Of a stretch of DNA of 64,000 bases, positions 2,537 through 55,396 are shown piece by piece; position 1 is the first letter of the stretch; every line of letters begins with the position of its first letter. A program made the translations under genes and the position numbers. The notes beneath the pieces are model-generated. The model did no database searches. It was not told the DNA's origin and saw nothing but the letters and a program-made list of their open reading frames with translations. Source of the stretch: an uncultured Alphaproteobacteria bacterium (GTDB taxonomy: Bacteria > Pseudomonadota > Alphaproteobacteria > Dongiales > Dongiaceae); contig CAVRUJ010000001.1 in NCBI GenBank assembly GCA_963724385.1, positions 1,154,896 to 1,218,895 on the forward strand. Direction: 5' to 3'.

Positions 2537-3361
2537 TCAGAAAGGCTTGTCGCCCTTTATGGTCACCCGGAATCCCGAGCGGACTTGAGGAAAATAGTCC
2601 CAGAGCGCCATGTGCTGGGCGCATCGATTGTCCCAGAAGGCGACGGAATTCTGCCGCCAGCGAAACCGCATCTGGAACTCCGGCCGGGCGCAGTGGCCGA
2701 CAAGGTAGGCGAGGATCGCCTCGCTTTCCTCTCGCGATAGGTCGTTGATCCGGGTCGTGAACATCCGGTTGACGTAAAGGGTCTTGCGCCCAGTTTCCGG
2801 ATGGGTGCGAACGACCGGATGCACCGCCCGGGGGTACTGCTTGGCCCGGTCGTCCACGCCTTGGTCCTTATACCGGCCTCGATAGTAGGGCTCGCCGTCA
2901 TGGGTAGCCGTCAGGCCCTCGAGATAGGCCTTCATCCGCTCCGAGAGGGCGCCATAGGCGGCATACATGCTGGCGAAGAGCGTGTCCCCGCCCACGGCAG
3001 GGACGACGCGCAGATGCAGGATACTGCCCATGGGCGGCTCCGCATCGCAGGACACGTCGGAGTGCCAGCTCTCGCCGGCGACGTAGGTCGATGTGGCGTC
3101 GGTGTGAACCGGCATCACCTCCGGATGGCCTGCCGGGGCCGGCGCGCCGGGGTGGATGTGAAGCTCGCCGAACTGGCGCCCGAAGGCCTTCTGGCTGTCC
3201 AGATCGAAGAGCTGGTCGCGAAAGAACAACACCTGGTGCTCGAGCAGGGCAGCGCGGATCTCGCCGATCTGGCGCGGACCCGCCTTGGTCAAGTCCACGC
3301 CCGCGACTTCGGCACCGATATGGGGCGAGACGGGCCGCACCTCGATCGTTTCGTATCCCAT
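2537..3361 (-). CDS. TauD/TfdA-family Fe(II)/2-oxoglutarate dioxygenase
   Basis: ORF 2537..3415 trimmed to Met19 (MGYETIEV). WHSDVSCDAEPPMGSILH matches the WHTDVTF iron-binding region of taurine dioxygenases. The length is about 274 aa. Confidence 0.85.
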   Translation of the reverse strand: MGYETIEVRPVSPHIGAEVAGVDLTKAGPRQIGEIRAALLEHQVLFFRDQLFDLDSQKAFGRQFGELHIHPGAPAPAGHPEVMPVHTDATSTYVAGESWHSDVSCDAEPPMGSILHLRVVPAVGGDTLFASMYAAYGALSERMKAYLEGLTATHDGEPYYRGRYKDQGVDDRAKQYPRAVHPVVRTHPETGRKTLYVNRMFTTRINDLSREESEAILAYLVGHCARPEFQMRFRWRQNSVAFWDNRCAQHMALWDYFPQVRSGFRVTIKGDKPF

Positions 3362-3529
3362 GGCCAAGCTCCTCGATACCGGCAGAGAGTGCCTCCGGTT
3401 GCCGCTGGCGTCCACAACGCCCTCTACTCCTGTCCGGCGCAGATGGTGTAAGACCTCATCTTGGCGATCCTGGCCGTCAGGATCGGGGTGTCCACCCGTG
3501 ACGGGCCGTTTGGCCAGGAGTTGGCATCG

Positions 3530-5730: not shown

Positions 5731-6516
5731 CTAGCTCCGTTTGCCGGGGGCGGACTTGGCGGCAATGACCGTCTCGATCAGAGCGTGCGAATGGATGCCG
5801 AGCAGGCCGCCATCGACGGCAATGGCCTGGCCTGTGATGTAGCGGCAATCGTCCGCGGCCAGGAAATGGATGAGGGCGGCAACTTCTTCGGGCATACCCA
5901 CCCTGCCGGCCGCCGCGGCAGTCTCGATGAGGGCGATTTCCACCTCGGCATTCTCCTGCTGGCGCAGCATGGGGGTGTCGATGGAGCCGGGACAGACGCA
6001 ATTGACCCGGATGCCCCGGCCGGCGAGCTCCACGGCCGCGGTCTGGGTGAGGCTGACCACCGCAGCCTTGGAGGCCGAATAGGCAGCATAGCTGCCGACC
6101 CCGAGCATGGCGGCGACCGAGGCGACGTTAATAATGCTGCCGCCCTCCATGTGGGGTGCCACATGGCGCATCGTGGCCCAGACGCCCATGGTGTTGACCT
6201 CGAAATGACGCCGCATGGCGGCGGCGCTGAGCTCGGTGATGGCCACCTGATCCGAGATCACGCCGGCGGAATTCACCAAGATATCGATCCGGCCATGGCG
6301 CCTGGCCACCTCGGCGATCAGCGAGATCACCTGGCTTTCTTGGGCTACGTCCACCGGCAGGTATTCGCCACCAAAAGCGGCCGCCGTGGGCCCTGCGTCG
6401 GACCGGTTGGCGATGACCACCTTGGCTCCGGCGGCGGCAAACCGGCGGGCGGTCGCAAGCCCGATCCCGGAACCGCCGCCCGTGACGAGCGCAATCTTGC
6501 CGTCAAGCCGGAACAT
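5731..6516 (-). CDS. SDR-family short-chain dehydrogenase/reductase
   Basis: ORF trimmed to Met13 (ATG 6516, GGGAGG upstream). It has the TGGGSGIG cofactor motif, NSAG and YAASKAAV (YxxxK). Confidence 0.85.
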   Translation of the reverse strand: MFRLDGKIALVTGGGSGIGLATARRFAAAGAKVVIANRSDAGPTAAAFGGEYLPVDVAQESQVISLIAEVARRHGRIDILVNSAGVISDQVAITELSAAAMRRHFEVNTMGVWATMRHVAPHMEGGSIINVASVAAMLGVGSYAAYSASKAAVVSLTQTAAVELAGRGIRVNCVCPGSIDTPMLRQQENAEVEIALIETAAAAGRVGMPEEVAALIHFLAADDCRYITGQAIAVDGGLLGIHSHALIETVIAAKSAPGKRS

Positions 6517-6679
6517 CCCCCGCGCCCCTCCCGTGGCTATTGGAAGCCGCACATCTTAGGTGAGGAATGGGGCGGGGCAAGCTGCGGCGCAGTTTGAGCC
6601 AACGGGCTTGCAGCGGGACAGGCCGCTGGTGAAGGACCCGACCGCCGGCTGGCGATCGGGTCCTATTCGGCCGACCTTT

Positions 6680-6925
6680 CTAGTTACAGACCGGCGACGA
6701 GCCGGCGTTGATCTGGTTCTGCGTGGTGAGGCCACCCACGGCGGCGCCCGCCGCGGCTCCGGCAGCGGCACCATAGAGCGGGGCCCCGGCCAATGCGCCT
6801 ATCACGGCGCCGCCAGCGGCACCGATGCCCGCGCCGGTCACGGCCCGACATCCCGGGGATTGGCCGCAAGCGGACAGGGCGAGGGCGCTGATGACCAAGA
6901 GCGCGGGTAGAGAATGAATACGCAT
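6680..6925 (-). CDS. small glycine-zipper lipoprotein (17-kDa-surface-antigen-like)
   Basis: ORF 6680..7147 trimmed to the ATG at 6925 (GGGAGA upstream). MRIHSLPALLVISALALSAC carries a lipobox. It is followed by a Gly/Ala zipper, GAGIGAAGGAVIGALAGAPLYGAAAGAAAGAAVGG. Confidence 0.7.
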   Translation of the reverse strand: MRIHSLPALLVISALALSACGQSPGCRAVTGAGIGAAGGAVIGALAGAPLYGAAAGAAAGAAVGGLTTQNQINAGSSPVCN

Positions 6926-7164
6926 GATAGGTCTCCCTCGTGGTCTGCAATTGGTATCCATTATGCCCGACAAGCCTTTGCGAACCAACTCGGTCTTGTC
7001 GATTCCGCCGGCTCTCGGGAGCCCCGCCCGGACGAGAAGCGGGCTCCCTTGCCCCATCATGTAGGAAGCAATCTCGGCGGAACTTGGGCGATTTCGCGGC
7101 CGGCTCCCGAATCCCGGCCTGCCCGACCGGGCCAACCCGTTTGCCACAGAGATGCCACAGGATC

Positions 7165-7623
7165 CTAGAAAAGCGGCTTCAGATCGGGATCGAGCCAGGC
7201 GCGCCGGGCAGCGACCGAAAGAAGCCGTTCGCGGCTGTAGTATTGGAACGGGAAGGCCTTGGTCGCATAGGGGCTGGCGAGCAGCGCATTGGTCAATGCC
7301 AGAAGCGGCAGAGCCTCGCCCGATTCTTCGACGAATCGCTGGATCGCCCGGACATAGAAGGCGGTGATGGTCTCATGGTAGCCGCCGGCGTCGTCGTTGA
7401 CCGTCCCGACGGCCTCGTTGTAGGCGATGATCCCTTGGCGGAGCTCTTCCAAAACCCGATCCCCTGGCCGGTTCAAGACATGCCAGAGCCCGACAGTAAG
7501 ATGGGACTGGTGGGTCCAGCGCGGCTGCGCGAGATCCCGCCGGCGAAATCCCTCGACGATCTCCAGGATCTCCGCCTCGCTCCGATAGGACGTGAAGGGG
7601 CGGGCGGCGGTTTCGATGGCCAT
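7165..7623 (-). CDS. hypothetical protein (152 aa) immediately downstream of ATPase 1
   Basis: ATG start, 43 nt after the ATPase stop, on the same strand. The sequence is globular-looking. No family recognised. Confidence 0.55.
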   Translation of the reverse strand: MAIETAARPFTSYRSEAEILEIVEGFRRRDLAQPRWTHQSHLTVGLWHVLNRPGDRVLEELRQGIIAYNEAVGTVNDDAGGYHETITAFYVRAIQRFVEESGEALPLLALTNALLASPYATKAFPFQYYSRERLLSVAARRAWLDPDLKPLF

Positions 7624-7665
7624 GATCTGGCGGCCGTTCCAGGCGGCTGGCGGCGCCTGCCGCGC

Positions 7666-9132
7666 TCAAGCTTGAGGGGGCGGCGATTTCGCGGGGTGGT
7701 AGCGCTTCACCCGGATATTGCTGATCGCGGCCTCGACCAGACGCTGCTCGAAATGAGGCTTTATGCCCTCGAACTCGCAGGTCGCGACGACCTGTTCGAT
7801 GATGAATCCGGGTTGGTAGGCCGCGAGCTCGATGCCCCGCTTCTCGGTCAGCTCCTGGATGATGAACTCGAGCATCTCTTCGCTGAGGGGAATATCCTTG
7901 GACTTGGCGACGTAATCGAAAATCCGCTTGAACCGCTTGCGCGAAGGCGGGGCGATCTCGAGCTTGAACGGCAGGCGGCGAAGGAAGGCCGGATCCATGA
8001 GATCTTCGGGCTCGAGATTGGTCGAAAACATCAGCCGCGCCTCGAACGGCAAGTCGAAGCTCTTGCCGGTCTGCAGCTTCAGATAGTCGACGCCGTTCTC
8101 CAAAGGCACGATCCAGCGATTCAGCAGGTCGGACGGCGACACGAGCTGGCGGCCGAAATCGTCGATGAGGATTGACCCGCCGAGCGCCTTCACGTGCAGG
8201 GGCGCCTCGTAGCATTTCGAAATGGGATCGTAGCCGAGCTCGAGCATCTCCAGCGTCAGCTCGCCGCCGGCCACTGCGAATGGCTGGCGGCAGGGAACCC
8301 ATCGTCCGTCGAATTCCTCGTCCCGGATGGCCCTCACGGAGGTATCTCGCTGCTCGTCCTCGTCGAGGAGGGCCGAGTGCAGCTTCGGATCGAACACGCG
8401 CATGATCTGCCCTTCGATCATGACCGAATAGGGGACGTAGATGAGGTCGGTCAGGGTTCGGCCGAGCCGAAGAGCGATCGACGTCTTGCCATTGCCCGGC
8501 GGCCCGTAGAACAGGATGGGTTTGCCCGAGTTGATTGCCGGGCCCATCTTCTGCATGAGCGACTCCTCGAGGAACAGCCCCGAGAGAGCCGCCTTGATTT
8601 CGGGCAAGGTCACCCGCTCGCCGGAGATCCGCTGACTGACGATCCGCTTCTTGAAGGCGTCCAAGGACACGGGCGCGGGGCCGATATACTGGGAGCGCGA
8701 CATTGCGCCGGCCGCCCATTGGCGGCCCGCCTCGGTGATGTCGTAGCGCTTTTCGGCGAGCATGCCCGAGCCGCGCGCGCTGCTGACATTGAGGAGCTGG
8801 CGGCTGGCGGCGAGTTCTCCCAACTGTGCGGCCAGCGGGTGGGGCAGTTTCAGGCCCTCGACGAATTGCGACGTCGTGTCGAGCCCGTTGACGAAGATGA
8901 GCTTCATCAGAAGGTCGAGCAGGTCGTTCTCTTTTATATGGAGCTCGGCGATGCTGGTCGGCTTGGCCGGGGAGATCTTCAGCAAGCGCTCGAGCCGCTT
9001 GCGGTCGACGATCCCCATCGCGATCAAGTTCTCGCCGAGCCGCCCGCCTTCGGTGAACTGCCGCTGCAAGGCGGCTTCGATGTCCTGGGGCGTTGCCAGC
9101 TCCGCCCTGATCAGAAGTTCACCGATCCTCAT
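7666..9132 (-). CDS. AAA+ ATPase with an N-terminal MshEN-like tandem motif and a probable winged-helix segment
   Basis: ATG at 9132 with AAGGTGAAGG upstream. Residues 2-54 match two 24-residue MshEN-type repeats. Walker A is GPPGNGKTS, Walker B ILIDDFGRQ, sensor STN, plus FLRR. It is about 50-60 % identical by eye to the 13277..14785 product. Confidence 0.85.
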   Translation of the reverse strand: MRIGELLIRAELATPQDIEAALQRQFTEGGRLGENLIAMGIVDRKRLERLLKISPAKPTSIAELHIKENDLLDLLMKLIFVNGLDTTSQFVEGLKLPHPLAAQLGELAASRQLLNVSSARGSGMLAEKRYDITEAGRQWAAGAMSRSQYIGPAPVSLDAFKKRIVSQRISGERVTLPEIKAALSGLFLEESLMQKMGPAINSGKPILFYGPPGNGKTSIALRLGRTLTDLIYVPYSVMIEGQIMRVFDPKLHSALLDEDEQRDTSVRAIRDEEFDGRWVPCRQPFAVAGGELTLEMLELGYDPISKCYEAPLHVKALGGSILIDDFGRQLVSPSDLLNRWIVPLENGVDYLKLQTGKSFDLPFEARLMFSTNLEPEDLMDPAFLRRLPFKLEIAPPSRKRFKRIFDYVAKSKDIPLSEEMLEFIIQELTEKRGIELAAYQPGFIIEQVVATCEFEGIKPHFEQRLVEAAISNIRVKRYHPAKSPPPQA

Positions 9133-9278
9133 CTCAAGACCTTCACCTTATGCGTTGAAGCCCCGAGCAAATCTTCCAGCTCAAGCTAATGCCACAGCTT
9201 GCGATTTAGTCAATTGTTTCCTGGTCATACAAATGGTCGCCCGACATGGCGGATTTGCTTCCTTGGGGGCTCCTCCGA

Positions 9279-10062
9279 TCAATCGAAGCCAACGCCCAGG
9301 CGGCCCAGCCCTGGGAACTCGGCGATGAGGCGGTCGCTCGGAGCGATGGCAACCGGCGTCAGGCATGTGCCGGTGGTCACGATTTGGCCGGCCTTCAATC
9401 CATCGCCCCGTTTCGAGCGTTCGTTGGCGAGCCAGGTGAGGGCGATGCGGGGATCGCCGAGGGCATCGGCGCCCTGGCCTTGTCCGGCGACACCGCCGTT
9501 GCGCAGCATGCGCACCGGCTGGCTGGGCAGGTCGATCCTCCGCCAGTCGGATACTTCGGGCCCCAGGATGAACCAGGCGGCGAAGGCGTCGTCGGCGACG
9601 ATCTGTGCCGGGCCTGCTTCGGCAAAACGCTCCAACCGGGCATCAGGCACCTCGATGGCGAGATGCATGCCGGCGACCGCTTTCACGACCTCTCCCAGCT
9701 CATAGGCGCGGGACCGAGAAGGCAGGTCCTGCCCCAGGCGAAAGGCAAACTCCGCCTCGGCCACGCGCATCAACATGGGACCGGCCGCGAGCCTGGCGCC
9801 ATCGCCGAGCACGAAATCGGCGAACAACCGGCCGGCGAGGGGCTCACTGACGCCGATGTGACGCTGGCCTGCCGCGCTGGTCGCCGCGATCTTCCAGCCG
9901 AGCACGGGCTGGCGGGCCAGCCCCGCCATGGCGTCCTGCACGGCATAGCCCCCGGGCCAGCGACCCTGGCCGGCAATGGGCGGGAAGCTCCGTCAGCCGG
10001 CGCTTTTCGAGGCGCGCTCGCCAGAGGATTTCGGCGGCTTCCGCTATGGCGGTTTCATTCAT
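9279..10062 (-). pseudogene. 2-keto-4-pentenoate hydratase-like (FAH superfamily) gene with a 1-nt frameshift
   Basis: The N-terminus MNETAIAEAAEILWRARLEKRRLTELPA lies in ORF 9844..10104. The rest (..YAVQDAMAGLARQPVLGWKIA...GQIVTTGT) lies in ORF 9279..9941. Removing one C from the C5 run at 9949-9953 restores ..SLARGYAVQDAM.. Confidence 0.7.
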
Positions 10063-10107
10063 CGGACTGCGCTCTCCCTCGACTATGGATTCACGCATCG
10101 CCACGGA

Positions 10108-11316
10108 TCAGATCAAGCATTCGTGCATCAGGTATTTGCCGCTGGGCGCTCGCGGTATCTCGCTCACGCGCCGGCAGCGGATCCGGAAACGCGGGGACAG
10201 GTATTTGTCGACGACATCCTGCGCCGCGGCCTCCGCGATTTCGACCCCGTCGGTCCTGGGCACATAGTGCAGTTCCACGTCGAAGAAGCCGGTCTGGAAC
10301 AGCTTGAATTGCCGCACGCCCAGAAGCAGCGATGTGTCGGCGGGAAGCATTGCCGCCACTCTCGTTCCATCCGGCAACTTGAACAGACACGACTCGCGGC
10401 CGATGACGCGCCGGATGGCGCATGCTGAGCGCGGGCAGCCGCTCGGCTCGCCGGCCACGGCATAGTCGCCGGTCTCGTAGCGGATCAGCGGCATGGCCCT
10501 GTTGAAGAGCGGGGTGACGACCACGCGGCCCATTTGGTCTGGCCCGGCCGGGCGGCCATTCTCGCCGACAAGCTCGAGGACCAGGTGCCGGTCGGCCGGG
10601 TGATAGGCATCGCAAAGCGGGCACTGCGCCGCTATCAGCCCCGCTTCGACGCAGCCATAGGTATCCACCAGCCGGCATCCGGGAATCTGCCCGACGAGCC
10701 GGCGCAACTCGTCTGAAACCACTTCGGAGACCGTCGAAACGAGCCGGAGGGACAGGGGTTGCGCGCTCTCGGCGAGCTGCTGCAGCGCCGCCTGCATGAT
10801 GGAGGGGAAGGCCACCGCCAGGGTGGCGGATGTGCGACGAAAGAGGTCGAAGGCGGCGGGACCATCAAGGGTGGCAAGCTTCCATTTCTCGGCGCCGTTC
10901 TTCAGGCTCTGCCGCTCCAACTTGCCGACAGGATGATCCTCGTCCGGGAACTCGATCTCGGCGACGCGCCGATGGCTGGCGAGGTCCCAACCCTGCATCA
11001 GGCGACGGTTTTCGGCGACGTTGGTTTGGAAGTGGCGCTGGGTCTTGCGGGTGAGCATCGGCTCGCCGGTCGACCCAGAGGTGCGCCTGGCTATGACTTT
11101 GCCTTCGCTTGGCGCGACGTGGCTCGAGAAAAATCGCTCCGTGTCTTCCCTCACCAGCCGTTTGCCCGTGATCGGAATTTCGTGGAAATCGATCATCAAG
11201 CCGCTGCGCAGGCGCTTGGCCCATTCCTGGTCCCGGTAATAGGGGGAATGGGCCGCCGCGTCGGACAGCATGGCGCTAAGCGCTGCCGGGAGCTCGGGTC
11301 CGATCTTGGCTTCCAT
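10108..11316 (-). CDS. phenylacetate-CoA ligase / coenzyme F390 synthetase-like acyl-adenylate-forming enzyme
   Basis: RRTSGSTGEPM (AMP-binding loop) and YETGDYAV motifs. The start is placed at Met24 (11316). The upstream ATG at 11385 is also possible. Confidence 0.8.
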   Translation of the reverse strand: MEAKIGPELPAALSAMLSDAAAHSPYYRDQEWAKRLRSGLMIDFHEIPITGKRLVREDTERFFSSHVAPSEGKVIARRTSGSTGEPMLTRKTQRHFQTNVAENRRLMQGWDLASHRRVAEIEFPDEDHPVGKLERQSLKNGAEKWKLATLDGPAAFDLFRRTSATLAVAFPSIMQAALQQLAESAQPLSLRLVSTVSEVVSDELRRLVGQIPGCRLVDTYGCVEAGLIAAQCPLCDAYHPADRHLVLELVGENGRPAGPDQMGRVVVTPLFNRAMPLIRYETGDYAVAGEPSGCPRSACAIRRVIGRESCLFKLPDGTRVAAMLPADTSLLLGVRQFKLFQTGFFDVELHYVPRTDGVEIAEAAAQDVVDKYLSPRFRIRCRRVSEIPRAPSGKYLMHECLI

Positions 11317-11406
11317 GATCGGGCTTCTGGTAACCCGGCCACGGCCGGCAGTCCAGATGGCGCCAAATGACGGCGCATCCTCCAAGTCCGCCCCACGACC
11401 GGGCCG

Positions 11407-12342
11407 TCAGACTCTCGGCAGGGTGAGCCAGCCCTTGGGCAGCAGGTCGGGGGTCGAAGGCAGATAGGTAAACCACGGATCGGGGGCGATCACGACCTGG
11501 TCAGGATGGCCGGCGAGCCAGGCGCCCCACCAGCTGAGTGAGGAATTGGCGATGATATGGTGCCGGCAGGCCGCCATCAGCCGCAGGTCCTCGACCGCCG
11601 CGTCAGGGCCGTTGGCGTCCACAAAATGGATGCCGGGTCCGCGAAAATTCTCCCGGCACCACTGGTGATCGTCGCTGAACATGAAGAACTCGACATCCCG
11701 GTGTTGCCCCAGGATCTGGCGCATCGCCCTTTCGTAGTAGCCGAGGGAGCAGAGCCCGTGGAGCTGCTGCTCTCGGGCGAGCAGATAGTCGCCTCGGCGG
11801 ACATGGACGCAGACCGCATTCGCCCCGCCGATCCGCGCGAGCCAATCGCGGTTGGCCCCGGGCGGTGGCGCTGGGCGCTGGAGCTCGCGTCTTATCGTCT
11901 CTGCCGCGGGCTCGAAATACCGGTAGGACTGCCAATAGCCGGCAAGGTAAGTCGAGCCGGCAAGCCGCTCGAATTGGGGATCGTAGTCGAAGCCCTTCTG
12001 GATGAAGACGTTCAGGCGCGGTCGCCGGAAACCCCCATCTTTGCTTGCCGTGAAGATGTGGCCGACCAGTCTCAGGGCGCGTTCAGCCGGGCTCGCGCTG
12101 TCGGGGAGCGGGACCGGGCCTTTGCGCGGTCCCTTCCGAAATCCGCGCCATGCGACCGTCGCCTGGATCGGGTAGCGATCGAGCGCGAACGGCCGCTGGC
12201 AATAGCCGGTGCCAAAGGCCGTGGCATCGAGGACGAGATTGGCGTCGAGCCGACTGGCGAGGGCTCGGCCCGCCGCATATTGGAACAGTTGGTTGCCCAG
12301 GCCGCCCAGGAGATGGGTGGCTACATAGACCGGTGCCGGCAT
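11407..12342 (-). CDS. glycosyltransferase family 11 (alpha-1,2-fucosyltransferase-like)
   Basis: ORF trimmed to the ATG at 12342 (GGGAGA upstream). It has HLLGGLGNQLFQYAAGRALA and the HVRRGDY motif typical of GT11. Confidence 0.85.
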   Translation of the reverse strand: MPAPVYVATHLLGGLGNQLFQYAAGRALASRLDANLVLDATAFGTGYCQRPFALDRYPIQATVAWRGFRKGPRKGPVPLPDSASPAERALRLVGHIFTASKDGGFRRPRLNVFIQKGFDYDPQFERLAGSTYLAGYWQSYRYFEPAAETIRRELQRPAPPPGANRDWLARIGGANAVCVHVRRGDYLLAREQQLHGLCSLGYYERAMRQILGQHRDVEFFMFSDDHQWCRENFRGPGIHFVDANGPDAAVEDLRLMAACRHHIIANSSLSWWGAWLAGHPDQVVIAPDPWFTYLPSTPDLLPKGWLTLPRV

Positions 12343-12351
12343 GGTCTCCCT

Positions 12352-12459
12352 AGTACCGGCTTTCGCAGAAAGTCGGTACATCGTTTTAGGTCCAAGGACC
12401 GGATTCATGCGGAAAATCGAGACCAAGCCGGAGTCACGGATTTCTGCGATCCGGTACTT
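12352..12459 (+). repeat. REP/MITE-like structured intergenic repeat, copy 1
   Basis: About 75 % identical by eye to 30321..30430, in the same orientation. It contains the hairpin TACCGGCTTTC gca GAAAGTCGGTA and a second imperfect long hairpin. Its ends are AGTACCGG ... CCGGTACT. Confidence 0.7.
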
Positions 12460-12558
12460 GGGACTTGGTCTGCCCTTCGTTCAATGCAATGGAGGCCGAT
12501 TCGCCTTCGGGAGTAAGCTTGCCCGAAGCGCTCCCCTGCTCTGTCACGGAGAGAGCCG

Positions 12559-13062
12559 GTGCACCAGCCGCCGCCGCAGATCGCTTCCGAAACCCTGCGC
12601 CAATTGTCCGCCTATTGGGACCGGCTCAGAGCCGGGCGGGCCTGTCCCTCCTGGTCCGAGATCGACCCGGCCGAGATGAAGACGCTGCTGCCCCACATCC
12701 TCGTGGCGGAGTTTCTCAGCGATCCTTTCGACGTGCGGTTTCGCCTAGTCGGCACGATGATCGTCGAGGCCTATGGCGAGGACTTCATGGGCAGGAACCT
12801 CCGCTCCTTGGAGCCGACGGGCGGCGTCGACCTGTGGCTCGAACTCTACTCCCGCCTCGTGGAAGAGCGCGTCCCGGTTTACGGTCGATACAGCCTCAGT
12901 TCGGACTATGTGCAAACCCAATACGTCGACGCGGGCATCTTCCCGCTTTCCGCGGACGGCGTGAAGGTGGACAAGGCCATCGAGTTGGAAGACTGGAGCC
13001 AGGCGGCGACGCTGGCGCCGAGCGTGCTCATGCACCCGGCCTGGCGGTTCGATCCCCTGTGA
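12559..13062 (+). CDS. single-domain PAS-like protein (alphaproteobacterial DUF1457-type)
   Basis: GTG start. LRQLSAYWDRLRAGRACPSWSEIDPAEMKTLLPHILV...FRLVGTMIVEAYGEDFMGRNL is the characteristic pattern of this family. Confidence 0.7.
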   Translation: MHQPPPQIASETLRQLSAYWDRLRAGRACPSWSEIDPAEMKTLLPHILVAEFLSDPFDVRFRLVGTMIVEAYGEDFMGRNLRSLEPTGGVDLWLELYSRLVEERVPVYGRYSLSSDYVQTQYVDAGIFPLSADGVKVDKAIELEDWSQAATLAPSVLMHPAWRFDPL

Positions 13063-13080
13063 GTTCGATCCCTGCTGAAC

Positions 13081-13239
13081 TCAATCCCCCGGCCAGACGG
13101 CCCAGGCGGCGCCGACGAATCCCAGGGCCGGAAGCATCCAGAAGCGCGCCGGGGTGCTGTAAAGGTTGGAGAAGCCCAATTTGATCGCGTTGTAGGCGAG
13201 GACGCCCGCGATCCCCAGGAAGACGAGCGACAACATCAT
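13081..13239 (-). CDS. 52-aa two-TM membrane peptide downstream of ATPase 2 (below the ORF-track cutoff)
   Basis: Manual read: MMLSLVFLGIAGVLAYNAIKLGFSNLYSTPARFWMLPALGFVGAAWAVWPGD. The ATG lies 37 nt after the ATPase stop, with GTGAGG upstream. Confidence 0.35.
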   Translation of the reverse strand: MMLSLVFLGIAGVLAYNAIKLGFSNLYSTPARFWMLPALGFVGAAWAVWPGD

Positions 13240-13276
13240 GCGCGCGAGCCTCACGGCCTGGTCCTCGCCTGCGCAC

Positions 13277-14785
13277 TCATGCTTCCGGGGCGCTGGTGTA
13301 GAGATTGTCGAGGGCGGTCGCCACGAGCGCCTCGCTCATCTCCGGGGCGCGTTTGGCAAAACTGCAGGCGTCGACCACATGGTCGACGATGAAGCGCGGT
13401 TGATAGCAGGCGAGCGGCGAATGGCGCCGGCCTTGCAGTTCCTCAACCAGCCAGGCGAACACCGCGTCGTCGAAGGGCAGCCGGCGCAACGCCGCCGCCC
13501 GGATGAAGATCTCGCGATAGCGCTCCAGCGACGGGGCGCCTAGCCTGATCTTATAGGGAATGCGGCGCAGGAACGCCGCGTCGGTCAGGTCCTCGGGCGC
13601 CAAATTCGTGCAGAAGATCACCAGCTCGTCGAAGGGGACCGAGAACGTGGCGCCGCTGTTCAGCTTGAGGTAGTCGATTTTCTCCTCGAGCGGGATCATC
13701 CAGCGGTTCAGCAGGTCCTTCGGGCGCACATATTGCCGGCCGAAATCGTCGATGACGAAGACGCCGCCCACGGCCTTGATATGGAGCGGCGCCTCATAGA
13801 AATTCGTCGACTCGCTGTACCGGAGATCCAGCATGTCGAGGGTGAATTCGCCGCCGGTGATCACCAGCGGGCGCCGGCAGGCGACCCAGCGCCGGTCGAA
13901 ATCCTCCCGGCGGATGACCATGTCGGGGGCGTCCTGGGGTCCGGCCCGGCCGATCTCCTCATGGATCTTGGGATCGAAGATCTTGACGATCTGGCCGCTC
14001 ACCTCGATGCAGTGGGGAATATAGATTACGTCCGAGAAGACGCGGTTGACCCGGCGCGCGATCGAGCTCTTGCCGTTGCCCGGCGGACCGTAGAGCAGGA
14101 TCGAACGGCCGGCCTTGACCGCGGGCCCGATCCGCTGCTTCAGGTCGTCGGTCAGCACCATGTCGTCGAAGGCGTCGCTCAAGTGCGATCCTTCGATCTG
14201 CTCGTTGCTCAGTTTTTGCATGGCAACGCGATCGCGATAGGCCCGAAGGCTGACGGGCACCGGGCCGATGTACTGGTTGCGGTCGAGAGCATCGCCCACC
14301 GCGTTCCGCCCGGCGCCGGTCAGGGAATATGTGAGGACCGGGATGGCGCCGCGCCGGTTGGAGCCCGTCACCTTGAGGAGCTTGCGCTCGACCGCCTCCT
14401 CCACCAGGTTCACGACCACATTGCCCGGCAGGCAGAGGAGTTCGGCAAGCGCCGGGGTGTTGTCGGCTCCAGCGCGGTGCAGGGCCTTGAGAAGCATGGC
14501 GACGAGGGTCGAGCGCGTGATCTCCGTGTCTTCCGCCGTGGCCGGCATGACCGGCCGGGCGGCAGGCTGCAAAGCGACGATCTGCTCCGGCGTCACGAGC
14601 TTCAGGGCGACCAGGTTCTCGGCGAGCTCGCCGCCGCGCGAGTGCCCGCGCTCGACCGCGCGCTCGACATCGGCGGGCTCCACCATGCCCTTGGCGACGA
14701 GAAGTTCCTCCAGACGCATGAAGCCTTGCTCCGGCTCAGATTGAGACAAGACAACACCCCCCGCTTCCGCGAAGCCGTCGCTCAT
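13277..14785 (-). CDS. AAA+ ATPase, paralogue of 7666..9132, with a degenerate MshEN-like N-terminus
   Basis: GPPGNGKSS, VIDDFGRQ, CTN and FLRR motifs. It is colinear with ATPase 1 throughout. An alternative start at Met23 (14719, MRLEELLV) aligns with the start of ATPase 1. Confidence 0.85.
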   Translation of the reverse strand: MSDGFAEAGGVVLSQSEPEQGFMRLEELLVAKGMVEPADVERAVERGHSRGGELAENLVALKLVTPEQIVALQPAARPVMPATAEDTEITRSTLVAMLLKALHRAGADNTPALAELLCLPGNVVVNLVEEAVERKLLKVTGSNRRGAIPVLTYSLTGAGRNAVGDALDRNQYIGPVPVSLRAYRDRVAMQKLSNEQIEGSHLSDAFDDMVLTDDLKQRIGPAVKAGRSILLYGPPGNGKSSIARRVNRVFSDVIYIPHCIEVSGQIVKIFDPKIHEEIGRAGPQDAPDMVIRREDFDRRWVACRRPLVITGGEFTLDMLDLRYSESTNFYEAPLHIKAVGGVFVIDDFGRQYVRPKDLLNRWMIPLEEKIDYLKLNSGATFSVPFDELVIFCTNLAPEDLTDAAFLRRIPYKIRLGAPSLERYREIFIRAAALRRLPFDDAVFAWLVEELQGRRHSPLACYQPRFIVDHVVDACSFAKRAPEMSEALVATALDNLYTSAPEA

Positions 14786-14965: not shown

Positions 14966-16366
14966 TCAGGAACCTGCCGGGTGGAATGCGGCCCTTGCGT
15001 CCGACTCCCTGACTGCGGCCATGCCCGCCCTCGCTTCATCTTGCGCCGAGCGTCGGGCCCTGGCCGCGAAGCTCCAGGCAAGCGGGCTTCTAGGCTTCAG
15101 CTCTGTCCGTTCCGAGGCAAGTCCGCTGGCAATTCCGCCAAGCCCGGCCCGGATCGCGGCTTCCAGCAATGTCAGGCTGAGGGCATCCCGCTGGGCGTGG
15201 CTGCCGCCGAATCGGTGGGCGATGGGCCTGAGGCGCATCAAAACCTCGACCGCCGTTCCGTAGTCGGCGCGGGCGAAGGCAAGGAGCGCGCGGCACAACG
15301 GAAGCCCCACCTCGGCCACGAGCGCGGCGTTGGTGCCGGGCTCGGTGGCCCGTCTTTCCAGCCGGGCGAGCAGTGCCGCGGCCGCGTCGTCCCGGCCGCC
15401 GCCGATGAAGGCCATCATGGCGTGGGCATCGTTGAAGGCGTAGTAGCCGTCCTCTGCCTTGCCGGCCCAGGCATCGGCCAGTTCCCGCCAGCGCTGGCCG
15501 ACCGGTGCTCCGCGCAGGTAGAGACGCCAGAGCAGGGCCGAGGCGTCGACCATCTCCAGGGCGATTTCCGAAGGTCGCGGCCGGATCTGCTTGTCGTAGA
15601 TGGCAAGCACCCGATCCCATTCATCGAGGTCGAAATGGTAGAGGGCGAGATGCCACCAGTTGTGAAACGCGAAGCCGTTGTCTTCGGCCCAGTCCTGGCT
15701 TCGGCCGGTGAGCCAGTCGATGCCCTCGTCGAGCCGCGCCTGCATTTCCATGACGTGAGCCACGGCGTGAATCGACCACGGGTCGCGCCGGTTTAGAGCA
15801 AGCGCCTGGCGGCCCCGCTCCTCGGCCCTTGGGTAGTCGCCCATCTCTTCGAGGCCGAAGGCATGCATGCCAAGCACGTAGCCGTAGCCTGGGACGCTCT
15901 CGTCCCAGGCCCAAAGCGTCCGGGCGACGCGGTCGCGCAGCTGGCTCGATTGCCCTAGATAGAAGTCACCGAGGTGCGCGAGCTGGAGGGCGAGGCTGTC
16001 GCGCGGATAGTCGGCCAGGATGGCGCCGTAGAGCTCGACCGCGCGGTCGAACTCGCCGCACGCCCAGGCGCGCGCCGCTGTGATATGGCCGCGCTCACGT
16101 TCGTTCGCCTGATCCCACAGGGCTTCGGCGGCGGCCACGCTTTGCTCGAGCGCGGCTTCGGCGCTCTTATCCGTGGCGCTCAGCATGAGGCCGGCCCGGA
16201 AGCAGTGGCCCAGGACGAAATCGGGATCTTCGGCCAGGGCGGCATCGATGGCGGCCAGGGGGTCGTTGAAGTAGCTGTGAAACAAGTCGATCGCGTCTTC
16301 GTAGCGATCGAGGGCGCGCCGGTTGCCGGTGGAAACCGGAACCCCGCGCCGGTCCTGCAAGGCCAT
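14966..16366 (-). CDS. tetratricopeptide-repeat protein (TTC38-like)
   Basis: ORF trimmed to Met19 (ATG 16366, GGAGAG upstream). Helical repeat sequence runs throughout (ALDRYEDAIDLFHSYF..., YPRAEERGRQALAL...). Confidence 0.75.
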   Translation of the reverse strand: MALQDRRGVPVSTGNRRALDRYEDAIDLFHSYFNDPLAAIDAALAEDPDFVLGHCFRAGLMLSATDKSAEAALEQSVAAAEALWDQANERERGHITAARAWACGEFDRAVELYGAILADYPRDSLALQLAHLGDFYLGQSSQLRDRVARTLWAWDESVPGYGYVLGMHAFGLEEMGDYPRAEERGRQALALNRRDPWSIHAVAHVMEMQARLDEGIDWLTGRSQDWAEDNGFAFHNWWHLALYHFDLDEWDRVLAIYDKQIRPRPSEIALEMVDASALLWRLYLRGAPVGQRWRELADAWAGKAEDGYYAFNDAHAMMAFIGGGRDDAAAALLARLERRATEPGTNAALVAEVGLPLCRALLAFARADYGTAVEVLMRLRPIAHRFGGSHAQRDALSLTLLEAAIRAGLGGIASGLASERTELKPRSPLAWSFAARARRSAQDEARAGMAAVRESDARAAFHPAGS

Positions 16367-16476
16367 GTTCCACTCTCCTTCCTCGCCGGCGGGGCGGCCC
16401 ATCGGGACCCGCCCGTGCATCGGCGATCTTGCGCTACATCAAAGCACCGGTTTTCCCTGCCTGCGATTATTGCAGC

Positions 16477-30277: not shown

Positions 30278-30320
30278 CGAATCCAAGCTTCGCGTTGGCG
30301 CGATCGCCGCTCTCGCGCCT

Positions 30321-30430
30321 AATACCGACTTTCGTAGAAAGTCGGTACATCGTCTTGAGTTTCAGTATCGGATTCACGCAGAAATTCGCGACAATGCCCC
30401 GAGTTCACGAATTTCTGCGATCCGATACTG
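30321..30430 (+). repeat. REP/MITE-like structured intergenic repeat, copy 2
   Basis: It contains the perfect hairpin TACCGACTTTC gta GAAAGTCGGTA, then CGGATTCACGCAGAAATTCG...CACGAATTTCTGCGATCCG. It aligns with 12352..12459. Confidence 0.7.
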
Positions 30431-30539
30431 CACGGGCCGCAATCATCGAAATGCCATGGTCTCGCCATGGCGAGGTCATCGAGCCGGTCTATGAATTCAA
30501 CTCTGAGGCGGCCGAACTCGGCGCCTTGAGGAGGTTCAC

Positions 30540-53766: not shown

Positions 53767-55396
53767 CGGGCACCGGCGACGTTTCCCGGGCCATCGAAGA
53801 GGCGGCGCTGCCGCCCGACAATCGCGAGCTCGCCAAGGAACCGCGCAACGACATCGGCAACGGTCGACGCTTGCTGGCCCGCCACGGCCAGGACTTGTTC
53901 GACGTGGCAGAGGCGGGCTGGCACGTCTGGAACGGCAAGCGCTGGGAACTGAGCGCGGGCAGCGTGGCGGCCCTGGGCCCGAGGTGTTGCGCCTGGCCCA
54001 CTTGACGGCCCTTGGCATCGCGGACGAGGCCGACGCGGTCAGCAAAAGCGCGCCGAAACTTCCGCCGGCCGAAGACGAAAGCGAGGAGGCGAAGCGGCTC
54101 CGCGAGCTGCATGACGCACTTCTGGCTGGCAACCAATCATCGCAAGTTCGGCATCCTCAGCGGCAACCAAGGCAAGATCGAGGGGATGTTGAAGACGACG
54201 GCGCCCTATCTCCGACGCAAGCCCGACGACTTCGATCGCGATCCCTATCTCTTCAATTGCGACAACGGCACGTTACGCCTCGGCGCCGACCAGGTGGAGA
54301 TCAAGGCCCACGCCCGCAGCGACCTGATCACGCATCTATCGCCGACCGTCTTCGATCCAGAAGCCTCCTGTCCGCTATTCCGCAAATACCTCGACCGCGT
54401 GCAGCCCGATCCCAACCAGCAACGCTTCCTGCAGGTCTGGTTCGGCTATTGCCTGTCGGGCCTGATCGTCGAACAGGTCCTGGCCATCCACCATGGGACG
54501 GGATCCAACGGCAAGTCGGTGCTGCTGGCACTCCTAATGTTCATTTTCGGCGATTACGCCGCCACGGTCCCGGTCGAGTCTTCATGCAGGAGCGCGAAGC
54601 GCGCGGCGGCGGCGAGGCGACGCCTGATATCGCCCGCCTGCCAGGCAAGCGCCTGGTCGTGGTCAGCGAGCCCGAGAAGAACGCGCGGCTTGCTGAATTC
54701 GTCGTCAAGACCGCAACCGGTGGAGGCAAGATGAACGCCCGCCGGCTGTTCGAGGGACAGTTCGAATTCGAGCCCGTGCTCAAGCTCAACATCGACTGCA
54801 ACGCGAAGCCGATCATCACCGGCAACGATGAAGGGATCTGGCGGCGCGTGCTGATGGCCGACTGGCCGGAGTTCATTTCCAAGGCGGAGGCGGACAAGCA
54901 CCTCATCGACAAGCTCAAGGGCGAGGCGAGCGGGGTGCTCAACTGGCTACTCGACGGCTGGCGCATGTATCGCGAGGACGGCCTTTGGCTGCCGGACAGC
55001 GTGCTCGCCGCGACGGAGGAATACCGGGCCGAGAGCGACCCATTGCGCCAGTTCATCACCAGCTGCCTCAAGAAAGCGCCTGGCCAACGGATCGCCCGCG
55101 GGCGGCTCTATGCCGCCTATGAGAAGTGGTGCAGGGGCAGCGGGCTCGAACCGATGAAGGGCAACGCCTTCGGCCGGGCTATGACGCAGGTCGGCATCCG
55201 GCGCGAGACGATCGGCGTGACCTTCTATTGCGACGTTCGAACTGGTCGAGGCAGCGATGGAACAATCTGGAGGAATGGAGCAATCCGGCCTTCTGGCCCG
55301 ATCCGCCGCCGCGATAGCGCTGTTTGGAGACGGCCCGGGGCCATTTGGAGGAAAATTGCTCCATTCCTCCAGATTGTTCCACCGACAAGTGGTTGA
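53763..55396 (+). pseudogene. P4/D5-type primase-helicase (NTPase), frameshifted at least 3 times
   Basis: NDIGNGRRLLARHGQDLF..WHVWNGKRWE, then DPYLFNCDNGTLRL...FLQVWFGYCLSG...HHGTGSNGKSV (Walker A), then RLVVVSEPEKNARL...KLNIDCNAKPIITGNDEGIWRRV. These lie in alternating frames. The 3' end reads through the iteron field, so the true stop is uncertain. Confidence 0.7.

What the first reader, a model, noticed from the sequence alone, without database searches (positions are those of the whole stretch)
7165..14785. Two paralogous MshEN-AAA+ ATPases bracket a fucosyltransferase / acyl-adenylate ligase / hydratase cassette
The two ATPases are about 50-60 % identical by eye, lie on the same strand, and flank a 4-kb block. 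The block holds a frameshifted 2-keto-4-pentenoate-hydratase-like gene, a PaaK/F390-synthetase-like ligase, a GT11 alpha-1,2-fucosyltransferase-like gene, a REP-like element and a divergent single-PAS protein. Each ATPase is followed by a small uncharacterised ORF (152 aa at 7165..7623; a 52-aa two-TM peptide at 13081..13239). The run continues co-directionally into a glycine-zipper lipoprotein and an SDR. A glycosyltransferase, an acyl-activating enzyme and a second-messenger sensor together suggest regulated surface-glycan modification. I cannot name a described system with this MshEN-wHTH-AAA+ architecture. This is the best candidate in the window for an uncharacterised system.
Basis: inference. 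Interest (0 to 1): 0.7.

Follow-up and report, generated by a model that had tools for sequence, protein, structure and literature searches.

The report
Uncharacterised c-di-GMP-sensor AAA+ ATPase paralogues
The two ATPases are real members of a large, unstudied family that joins a probable c-di-GMP sensor to a ring-type ATPase, but their position around a sugar-transferase/ligase cassette is an accident of one narrow lineage, not a conserved system.

Summary
Two points need correcting. The ATPases are 42 % identical, not 50-60 %. Only ATPase 1 (7666-9132) keeps a near-canonical MshEN_N c-di-GMP motif; ATPase 2 and its whole clade are degenerate.

Around 80 ATPase homologues from species-representative genomes (±10 kb), none has a GT11, ligase, hydratase, 152-aa, PAS_5, 2-TM peptide or TPR homologue. 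Most ATPase genes have neighbours on the opposite strand. Ligase homologues of 44-60 % identity lie in unrelated contexts. ATPase-2 orthologues sit alone elsewhere in sister genomes.

What is there:
- two anciently diverged members of a widespread family with no Pfam model (1,128 clusters at E ≤ 1e-30);
- architecture MshEN_N – MarR-like winged helix – AAA+;
- best structural match: an uncharacterised P. furiosus hexamer, then archaeal LonB.

The same winged-helix–AAA+ core carries FHA, PAS or HDOD N-termini in other proteins. A sister subfamily sits inside Hpt–REC–REC–EAL–ATPase–PAS-GGDEF operons.

Best reading: stand-alone, signal-gated AAA+ effectors, with c-di-GMP as the input for ATPase 1. 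Substrate unknown. Interest is moderate.

The parts
7666..9132 (-). ATPase 1 (488 aa). Domains: MshEN_N-like four-helix c-di-GMP motif (res. 2-54), MarR/DtxR-like winged helix (about 68-146), AAA+ module (about 160-400) with a conserved insert between Walker A and Walker B, and a C-terminal helical lid. Motifs: Walker A GPPGNGKT 210-217, Walker B LIDDFGRQ 322-329, sensor-1 STN 370-372, FLRRLP 383-388.
   Evidence: NF053729 scores 49.8 bits against a cutoff of 38. The family profile hits VcMshE 5htl (7.5e-8), PilB and PilF GSPII. Motif check. AF2 pLDDT 87.4, pTM 0.83. Foldseek matches. Conserved columns.
13277..14719 (-). ATPase 2 (480 aa from M23; the ORF extends to 14785). Same architecture, 42 % identical to ATPase 1. 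It belongs to a separate, deep-branching subfamily whose MshEN_N motif is systematically degenerate: RLG→RLE, motif-I Q→G/R/S, motif-II R→E, G→A, G10→K.
   Evidence: (29.9 bits, below the cutoff of 38).
7165..7623 (-). 152-aa ORF, 42 nt downstream of ATPase 1. No family assignment. Conserved only in close relatives of the window.
9279..10062 (-). FAA_hydrolase / 2-keto-4-pentenoate-hydratase-like gene, broken by a +1 insertion near 9956.
10108..11385 (-). Acyl-adenylate-forming ligase of the PaaK / F390-synthetase / DVU_1553-like superfamily. The likely start is M24 at 11316.
11407..12342 (-). GT11 family glycosyltransferase (alpha-1,2-fucosyltransferase-like), 311 aa. HVRRGDY and SxSWWGAWL motifs are present.
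12349..12465 (.). Structured two-hairpin intergenic repeat (REP-like). A second copy lies at 30318-30432.
   Evidence: no Rfam match.
12559..13062 (+). Single-domain PAS_5 protein (167 aa), divergent from GT11. It separates the ATPase 2 unit from the GT11–ATPase 1 run.
13081..13254 (-). Small peptide of 52-57 aa with two hydrophobic segments, 22 nt downstream of ATPase 2. Found only in close relatives.
14966..16420 (-). TPR-like protein of 464-484 aa upstream of ATPase 2. Linked to it only in close relatives.

Best explanation
The window carries two anciently diverged paralogues of a large, uncharacterised family of signal-regulated AAA+ ATPases. Each is an autonomous single-gene effector. The architecture is an N-terminal MshEN_N four-helix module, a MarR-like winged helix and an AAA+ motor. 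The motor has an unusually conserved insert between Walker A and Walker B.

Inferred mechanism: the protein forms a hexameric ring, like its best structural match. The N-terminal sensor controls ring assembly or ATP turnover. In ATPase 1 the signal is c-di-GMP bound by the two tandem RLG…Q-type motifs. ATP hydrolysis then remodels a still unknown protein (less likely DNA) target, engaged through the winged helix and the conserved insert.

ATPase 2 belongs to a subfamily that kept the fold but lost the c-di-GMP contact residues. It probably answers to another cue or is constitutive.

The GT11–ligase–hydratase cassette, the PAS_5 gene and the small ORFs are lineage-specific neighbours, not parts of a conserved machine.

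Shown: paralogy, architecture, family size, absence of conserved neighbours, modular N-termini, and the EAL/GGDEF operon context of a sister subfamily. Inferred: c-di-GMP binding, hexamer formation, gating, and remodelling activity.
For: - Paralogy: 42 % identity, E 8e-143. An NJ tree puts ATPase 1, ATPase 2 and the 'operon' type in separate clades.
- N-terminal domain: NF053729 above cutoff for ATPase 1. The family profile hits MshE 5htl at 7.5e-8, M. xanthus PilB at 5e-9 and PilF GSPII at 3e-13. Foldseek with the 1-160 model ranks 5htl first, then MarR/DtxR wHTH proteins. The motif has the exact 5-residue linker, and R/G/L positions are kept in about 75-85 % of family members.
- AAA+ module: Walker A, Walker B, sensor 1 and RR are invariant. 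Foldseek: the 8p49 hexamer at 4e-12, then LonB, BchI, NtrX, NtrC1, ComM and NorQ. 8p49 is a hexameric ring with a flexible N-domain and no Pfam assignment.
- Family size: at least 7,995 hits (capped) at E ≤ 1e-10; 1,128 50 %-identity clusters at E ≤ 1e-30; at least 437 loci in species-representative genomes, mostly Acidobacteriaceae and Alphaproteobacteria.
- Stand-alone status.
- Signalling-output character: the same wH–AAA+ core carries FHA, PAS or HDOD N-termini.
- c-di-GMP context: the sister subfamily lies in Hpt–REC–REC–EAL–ATPase–PAS-GGDEF operons in three MAGs (L001, L085, L086), with 4-nt EAL/ATPase overlaps in two of them. Two further genomes (L008, L016) show partial signs of the same context. 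In L001 the EAL and GGEEF motifs are present.
Against: - No binding, oligomer or activity data exist for any member.
- ATPase 1 departs from the strict MshEN consensus at motif-I Gly10 (Glu) and motif-II Gln24 (Ser). Most family members have I/V/M/S at the latter position. A Q→V change there is among those linked to loss of binding in XpsE (PMC5013675).
- A consensus match is not sufficient for binding. PilF GSPII-A with a restored consensus still did not bind (PMC12002112).
- Fifty-four acidobacterial loci show no EAL or GGDEF gene within ±10 kb, so the context support comes from one proteobacterial subfamily.
- TM-scores to solved AAA+ structures are only 0.4-0.58, so clade placement and pore geometry are uncertain.
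- No canonical aromatic pore loop is evident from the sequence.
- Same-strand spacing GT11–ligase–hydratase–ATPase 1–152 aa (gaps 21-146 nt) is kept down to 82 % ATPase identity (L107). Local co-transcription in this lineage cannot be excluded.
Confidence: 0.6

Rival explanations
1. One reading: GT11–ligase–hydratase–ATPase 1–152 aa is one operon, and the c-di-GMP-sensing ATPase controls or assists modification of a surface glycan.
For: - Same strand and short gaps.
- The arrangement is conserved in L002-L004, L087, L088 and L102, and partly in L107, where ATPase 1 identity is 82 %.
- MshEN domains are known to regulate glycosyltransferases such as NfrB (PMC5013675; PMC8669469, listed).
- A Bac_transf sugar transferase is the downstream neighbour in 9 of 79 loci, and a GT2 follows the GGDEF gene in L086.
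Against: - No cassette homologue lies near any of the 80 other ATPase loci.
- ATPase 1 orthologues of 64-68 % identity have entirely different neighbours.
- Ligase homologues occur without the ATPase or GT11.
- The hydratase is frameshifted in the window.
- A 146-nt gap precedes ATPase 1.
- The downstream gene is on the opposite strand to the ATPase in 52 of 81 loci overall. By their coordinates the Bac_transf neighbours look convergent and come from Terracidiphilus-type genomes. They therefore probably reflect shared ancestry rather than independent linkage. Neither point was tabulated separately.
Confidence: 0.15
2. The proteins are c-di-GMP-responsive DNA-binding factors. They could be transcription regulators, or DNA-loading or helicase-type AAA+ proteins that use the MarR-like winged helix. 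This would be analogous in logic to FleQ, or to ORC/Cdc6 or ComM.
For: - The wHTH fold matches MarR, DtxR and IdeR DNA-binding domains.
- NtrX, NtrC1, FleQ, FlrC and ComM are among the AAA+ structural matches.
- A monocistronic, stand-alone gene is typical of regulators.
Against: - The predicted recognition helix (res. 98-110, HPLAAQLGELAAS) has no basic residues. Only its buried hydrophobic positions are conserved in the family.
- There is no Sigma54_activat hit, no GAFTGA loop and no C-terminal HTH.
- The best structural matches are the 8p49 hexamer and LonB, not DNA-binding AAA+ proteins.
Confidence: 0.15
3. The ATPases are part of an anti-phage defence system (IetA/IteA-like or MoxR-type conflict system).
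For: Weak PADLOC IetA and NCBIfam IteA hits, and weak bpMoxR and nSTAND3 hits in relatives.
Against: - Most of the weak hits cover only the P-loop stretch (about res. 200-240). They score 27 bits against an equivalog cutoff of 510.
- The Pfam scan of the immediate neighbours found no IetS-like protease or vWA partner.
- The genes sit among housekeeping and metabolic neighbours.
- The gene is kept as one copy per locus in ordinary chromosomal contexts across many Acidobacteriaceae species, and no island-like neighbours were seen.
Confidence: 0.03

Closest known systems
MshE / PilB / PilF-type secretion ATPases with N-terminal MshEN (GSPII) c-di-GMP receptor domains
   Same: The N-terminal 53-residue module has two 24-residue RLGxxLLxxG…L…L..Q-type motifs joined by a 5-residue linker. 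It is predicted as a four-helix bundle whose best PDB match is MshE bound to c-di-GMP. In both, a sensor domain sits ahead of an ATPase.
   Different: The motor is an AAA+ fold, not the T2SSE/PilT-class (PF00437) ATPase. There is no MshEN_C subdomain; a winged helix follows instead. The genes are not in gsp or pil operons. Motif-I Gly10 and motif-II Gln24 are not conserved in the family.
Uncharacterised P. furiosus hexameric AAA+ protein Q8U0N8 (PDB 8P49) and archaeal LonB ATPase domain (4ZPX/3K1J)
   Same: These are the best structural matches to the full-length model (E 4e-12 to 5e-9). 8P49 is a hexameric ring with a flexible N-terminal domain and, like this family, has no Pfam assignment.
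   Different: Sequence identity is 14-18 % and TM-scores are 0.4-0.58. There is no Lon protease domain and no membrane insertion. The N-terminal sensor differs. The function of 8P49 is itself unknown.
FleQ / bacterial enhancer-binding proteins (sensor domain – AAA+ – HTH), including c-di-GMP-responsive FleQ
   Same: The design logic is shared: exchangeable N-terminal sensor modules (here MshEN_N, FHA, PAS, HDOD) drive a AAA+ output domain. FleQ shows that a AAA+ protein can be a c-di-GMP effector (PMC5013675).
   Different: There is no Sigma54_activat domain, GAFTGA loop or C-terminal HTH. In FleQ, c-di-GMP binds the AAA+ domain itself, not a MshEN module. In this family the winged helix lies N-terminal to the motor.
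NfrB and other MshEN–glycosyltransferase fusions (c-di-GMP-controlled exopolysaccharide synthesis)
   Different: In those proteins the sensor and the GT are fused in one polypeptide. Here the GT11 is a separate gene, and its adjacency to the ATPase is confined to one narrow lineage.

Membership tests
MshEN_N c-di-GMP-binding domain | Two tandem 24-residue motifs RLGxxL(L/V/I)xxG(L/V/I/F)(L/V/I)xxxxLxxxLxxQ separated by a 5-residue linker | tested here: met
   ATPase 1: RIGELLIRAELATPQDIEAALQRQ-FTEGG-RLGENLIAMGIVDRKRLERLLKIS. It matches 21 of 22 scored positions of the relaxed pattern. Deviations from the strict consensus are E11 (Gly) and S54 (Gln). The motif definition comes from PMC5013675 and PMC12943098.
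MshEN_N c-di-GMP-binding domain | The same motif in ATPase 2 | tested here: not met
   RLEELLVAKGMVEPADVERAVERG-HSRGG-ELAENLVALKLVTPEQIVALQPAA. G3→E, Q24→G, R1'→E, G3'→A, G10'→K; 15 of 22 positions. The whole ATPase 2 clade shares this degeneration.
MshEN_N c-di-GMP-binding domain | Curated HMM NF053729 at or above its cutoff (38 bits) | tested here: met
   ATPase 1 scores 49.8 bits. ATPase 2 scores 29.9 bits, below the cutoff.
MshEN_N c-di-GMP-binding domain | Four-helix-bundle fold like VcMshE 5HTL | tested here: met
   AF2 predicts helices 3-9, 15-28, 32-38 and 44-53. Foldseek ranks 5htl_B first (E 5e-3, prob 1.0) and also finds PilF GSPII-B 8pdk. The sequence profile hits 5htl at E 7.5e-8.
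MshEN_N c-di-GMP-binding domain | Measured high-affinity c-di-GMP binding | not testable with these tools
   This needs ITC, DRaCALA or NMR. A consensus match alone is not sufficient (PilF GSPII-A, PMC12002112).
MshE/PilB/GspE secretion ATPases | T2SSE (PF00437) ATPase domain and a gsp/pil/msh operon context | tested here: not met
   No T2SSE hit in Pfam or NCBIfam. Neighbours are unrelated to secretion or pili.
AAA+ ATPase superfamily | Walker A, Walker B, sensor 1, arginine residues after sensor 1, and an αβα core plus helical lid | tested here: met
   GPPGNGKT, LIDDFGRQ, STN and FLRRLP are invariant or nearly so. There are 1,449 PDB matches at E ≤ 1e-3; those listed are AAA+ proteins.
Lon / LonB proteases | C-terminal Ser-Lys protease domain | tested here: not met
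   The protein ends after the AAA+ lid at residue 488. No Lon_C hit.
Sigma-54 enhancer-binding proteins (FleQ/NtrC type) | Sigma54_activat domain with GAFTGA loop and a C-terminal HTH | tested here: not met
   No PF00158 hit for the window proteins. One relative has a P-loop-only hit at E 2.5e-4. No C-terminal HTH appears in the model.
IetA/IteA anti-phage ATPases | Equivalog-level similarity and an IetS protease partner | tested here: not met
   NF042959 scores 27.5 and 26.4 bits against a cutoff of 510. PADLOC hits cover only about 25-40 residues around the P-loop. No partner gene is present.
Glycosyltransferase family 11 | PF01531 above its gathering score; HxRRGDY motif | tested here: met
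   98 bits against a cutoff of 23.9. HVRRGDY is present in the translation. Fucosyltransferase activity was not tested.
PaaK phenylacetate-CoA ligase / F390 synthetase | Equivalog HMM score | tested here: not met
   TIGR02155 scores 30.9 against 646. TIGR02304 scores 21.8 against 252. DVU_1553 family scores 111 against 300. Only superfamily-level AMP-binding passes, at 32 against 29.9.
2-keto-4-pentenoate hydratase (MhpD/DmpE) | Equivalog HMM score and an intact reading frame | tested here: not met
   NF008461 scores 107.5 against 350. The frame is broken by a +1 insertion near 9956.

The most novel reading that the evidence does not exclude
MshEN_N–wH–AAA+ proteins are a new, widespread class of c-di-GMP effector in soil Acidobacteriota and Alphaproteobacteria. 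They would be hexameric AAA+ remodelling motors switched by c-di-GMP. They would belong to a broader, undescribed family of 'one-component' AAA+ signal-output proteins whose wH–AAA+ core accepts interchangeable sensors (MshEN_N, FHA, PAS, HDOD). Genomes that carry both a canonical and a degenerate-sensor paralogue, as this window does, might build mixed rings in which only some subunits sense the messenger.
Probability: 0.3. Interest if true: 0.7.

Novelty: new variant of a known kind. Interest (0 to 1): 0.45.

Why it matters
c-di-GMP signalling has long had many more cyclases and phosphodiesterases than known receptors. Acidobacteriota and many soil Alphaproteobacteria are especially poorly understood in this respect.

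This family has about a thousand 50 %-identity clusters and no Pfam model. It joins a recognised c-di-GMP receptor module to a AAA+ motor. It would add an energy-consuming remodelling output to the known effector types.

The family also has a tractable entry point:
- The EAL–ATPase–GGDEF operon suggests a local signalling module.
- Cultured carriers exist: Sneathiella chungangensis KCTC 32476 and Granulicella aggregans M8UP14.

The negative result matters too. The eye-catching bracket of GT11, ligase and hydratase should not be annotated or pursued as a system.

Tried and rejected
- **Conserved ATPase–cassette linkage.** I ran tblastn with all seven cassette and flanking proteins against 84 ATPase loci. 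Only near-identical relatives hit. Rejected.
- **De novo neighbour clustering.** All-vs-all blastp of 6,688 ORFs. No cluster beyond the ATPase exceeds 18 of 85 loci, and those reflect synteny among related Acidobacteriaceae.
- **Pfam census of the -1 and +1 genes.** Heterogeneous: Bac_transf 9, Pyr_redox 7, TIG/Big_1 12, NAD synthase 9. No partner emerged.
- **Ligase-centred search of metagenome contigs.** Linkage exists only in the window's own lineage.
- **A small 2-TM peptide downstream as a family feature.** Found in 3 of 90 cases, all close relatives.
- **Recent tandem duplication.** Rejected. The two copies fall in separate deep clades, and ATPase-2 orthologues lie elsewhere in sister genomes.
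- **Defence-system membership.** PADLOC hits cover the P-loop only.
- **Promoter and terminator scan of 6.5-16.8 kb.** Nothing above the shuffled background. The one strong 'terminator' is the first hairpin of the repeat element, so co-transcription could not be settled.
- **Rfam.** Only a tRNA in the whole window.
- **Literature.** Four searches found no description of a MshEN–AAA+ protein. The library is incomplete, so this is absence of evidence only.
- **Taxonomy.** I did not determine it directly. Relatives are labelled uncultured Alphaproteobacteria. One 94 %-identical contig is binned as 'Candidatus Udaeobacter', which I suspect is a binning error but did not test.

Full report

- On the minus strand, in transcription order:
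  - a TPR-like protein (14966-16420)
  - ATPase 2 (13277-14785)
  - a 52-57-aa peptide with two hydrophobic segments (13081-13254)
  - GT11 (11407-12426)
  - an AMP-binding ligase (10108-11385)
  - a FAA_hydrolase-type hydratase (9279-about 10062)
  - ATPase 1 (7666-9132)
  - a 152-aa ORF (7165-7623)
  - a Gly-zipper lipoprotein (6680-7147)
  - an SDR (5731-6552)
- On the plus strand, a 167-aa PAS_5 protein (12559-13062; PF07310, E 1.4e-13) splits the ATPase 2 unit from the GT11 run.
- The two ATPases align end to end at 42 % identity (E 8e-143).
- The hydratase frameshift is real. Its first 38 residues are in another frame. Compared with a 99.0 %-identical metagenome contig (L087), the window has one extra C near 9956. 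This is either a recent lesion or an assembly error.
- The 'REP-like element' is a two-hairpin repeat of about 115 nt at 12349-12465, with a 79 %-identical copy at 30318-30432. Folding z-scores are -4.4 to -6.8. It has no Rfam family.
- Likely true starts shorten GT11 to 311 aa and ATPase 2 to 480 aa.

**What the ATPases are.** Pfam sees only sub-threshold P-loop matches.

- NCBIfam's MshE-related c-di-GMP motif model NF053729 scores ATPase 1 at 49.8 bits (cutoff 38) and ATPase 2 at 29.9.
- A profile of 84 family members hits the solved c-di-GMP-binding domains of T. thermophilus PilF (3e-13), M. xanthus PilB (5e-9) and V. cholerae MshE 5HTL (7.5e-8). These hits use profile positions 2 to about 84.
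- The AF2 model of ATPase 1 is confident (pLDDT 87.4, pTM 0.83). It shows:
  - four N-terminal helices
  - an α-α-α-β-β winged helix (68-132)
  - a AAA+ core with a long β-rich insert between Walker A (210-217) and Walker B (322-329)
  - a helical lid
- The isolated 1-160 model finds MshE bound to c-di-GMP (5HTL) as its top PDB match, then a run of MarR, DtxR and IdeR winged-helix domains.
- The full model matches best an uncharacterised hexameric P. furiosus protein (8P49, E 4e-12). That protein has no Pfam domain and a flexible N-terminal domain. Next come archaeal LonB, BchI, NtrX/NtrC1, ComM and NorQ.

I found no description of it in the MshEN paper's architecture table or in later literature.

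**Sensor competence differs between the paralogues.**

- ATPase 1 carries both 24-residue motifs with the exact 5-residue linker (RIGELLIRAELATPQDIEAALQRQ-FTEGG-RLGENLIAMGIVDRKRLERLLKIS). It departs from the strict consensus only at motif-I Gly10 (Glu) and motif-II Gln24 (Ser).
- ATPase 2 has RLG→RLE, motif-I Q→G, motif-II R→E, G→A and G10→K.
- The same degeneration runs through its whole clade, down to 53 % identity. It is therefore a stable subfamily trait, not decay.
- The replaced residues are those that stack on guanine or hydrogen-bond the backbone of c-di-GMP (PMC12002112).
- Two caveats apply. Most family members lack Gln at the end of motif II. A consensus match does not guarantee binding.

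**Is there a system?** No.

- The family is large: at least 7,995 hits (capped), 1,128 50 %-clusters at E ≤ 1e-30, and at least 437 loci in species-representative genomes.
- Of the 80 loci fetched with ±10 kb, about 54 are Acidobacteriota and about 24 Pseudomonadota. The cultured Granulicella aggregans and Sneathiella chungangensis are among them.
- tblastn with the 152-aa protein, hydratase, ligase, GT11, PAS_5, peptide and TPR protein hits only the window's near-identical relatives (L002-L004) and none of the 80.
- De novo clustering finds no neighbour family in more than 18 of 85 loci.
- The adjacent genes are on the same strand in only 29/81 (downstream) and 31/81 (upstream) cases.
- Their Pfam content is heterogeneous.
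- Starting instead from the ligase, homologues of 44-60 % identity have no GT11, hydratase or ATPase nearby. Linkage is limited to contigs where ATPase 1 is at least 82 % identical.
- The 2-TM peptide follows the ATPase only in those same relatives.
- An NJ tree places ATPase 1 and ATPase 2 in separate deep clades.
- ATPase-2 orthologues (60-62 %) sit alone between glycerate/pyruvate kinase genes and a TauD gene in sister genomes.

The bracket is thus a lineage-specific juxtaposition.

**Evidence that bears on function.**

- *Operon context.* In three sister alphaproteobacterial MAGs (L001, L085, L086), a third subfamily with a canonical motif lies inside Hpt–REC–REC–EAL–ATPase–PAS-GGDEF operons.
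  - The EAL and ATPase genes overlap by 4 nt in two of them.
  - The GGDEF gene follows within 6-42 nt.
  - Two further genomes show partial signs of the same context: EAL, GGDEF and REC hits in L008; EAL, Hpt and REC hits in L016.
  - In L001 the EAL and GGEEF signatures are intact.
  - In these genomes the ATPase-1 orthologue lies 3-6 kb away with different genes in between. Clustering of paralogues recurs, but the cargo varies.
- *Modular N-termini.* Many representatives match the family profile only from position about 54 (winged helix plus AAA+). They carry other N-termini: FHA (4 of 41 examined), PAS (3), HDOD (1) or unrecognised segments.

This modularity is what one expects of a signal-output module with exchangeable sensors.

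**Most likely mechanism (inferred).** I propose a hexameric AAA+ ring whose assembly or turnover is gated by the N-terminal sensor. ATPase 1 would sense c-di-GMP. The ring would act on an unknown target through the winged helix and the invariant insert (D275, R277, W278, GGE 289-291, YEAP 308-311, H313, K315).

DNA binding is less likely. The predicted recognition helix has no basic residues, and only its core positions are conserved.

Defence-system and σ54-activator membership both fail their tests.

**Verdict.** The system-level interpretation is not supported. The ATPases themselves are a new variant of a known kind: a MshEN-type receptor on a novel AAA+ output. They belong to a sizeable uncharacterised family. 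Interest is moderate (0.45). The proposed mechanism rests on inference, and no member has been studied.

Noticed in passing
window 12349-12465 and 30318-30432: A repeat of about 115 nt forming two strong hairpins. The copies are 79 % identical and include a G·U→A-U change in a stem. RNA folding z-scores are -4.4 to -6.8 on either strand. Both copies are intergenic. The first-hairpin core is also found at the same position in L002-L004, L087 and L102. No Rfam family matches.
   Followed up: partly
window about 9956 (hydratase gene 9279-10062): A single extra C in a G/C run breaks the hydratase frame. The gene is intact in a 99.0 %-identical metagenome contig (L087). This is either a recent pseudogene or an assembly error.
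   Followed up: yes
L001 11960-18224; L085 14377-20473; L086 7731-13193; also L008, L016: A sister subfamily of the ATPase is embedded in a conserved Hpt–REC–REC–EAL–ATPase–PAS-GGDEF operon, with a 4-nt EAL/ATPase overlap. This looks like a local c-di-GMP signalling module in uncultured Alphaproteobacteria and Dongiaceae.
   Followed up: partly
proteins P0167, P0170 (FHA), P0205, P0218 (PAS), P0200 (HDOD): The winged-helix–AAA+ core of the family occurs with FHA, PAS, HDOD or unrecognised N-terminal domains in place of MshEN_N. This points to a broader modular family of sensor–AAA+ proteins with no Pfam model.
   Followed up: partly
L108-L110 (ATPase-2 orthologues) and window 2537-3415: ATPase-2-type genes in sister genomes lie next to a TauD dioxygenase, and in L110 near a PAS_5 gene. 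The window has a TauD gene about 4 kb beyond ATPase 1. The block between ATPase 2 and TauD may therefore be an insertion or rearrangement.
   Followed up: no
L089, L097, L098, L105: Homologues of the PaaK-like ligase often occur as two paralogues within one locus, without GT11, hydratase or ATPase genes.
   Followed up: no
window 55255-55284 / 55355-55384: A near-perfect inverted repeat: 30-nt arms, 97 % complementary, 70 nt apart.
   Followed up: no
L002 (GCA_035604155.1): A contig 94 % identical in ATPase 1, with the same gene order, is binned as 'Candidatus Udaeobacter sp.' (Verrucomicrobiota). All other close relatives are alphaproteobacterial, and the PAS_5 gene fits that. This is probably a binning error, but I did not test it.
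   Followed up: no
window 13277-14785 and 11407-12426: The longest ORFs overshoot the likely starts. ATPase 2 probably begins at M23 (14719, 480 aa). GT11 probably begins at M29 (12342, 311 aa). The extra GT11 codons overlap the repeat element.
   Followed up: yes
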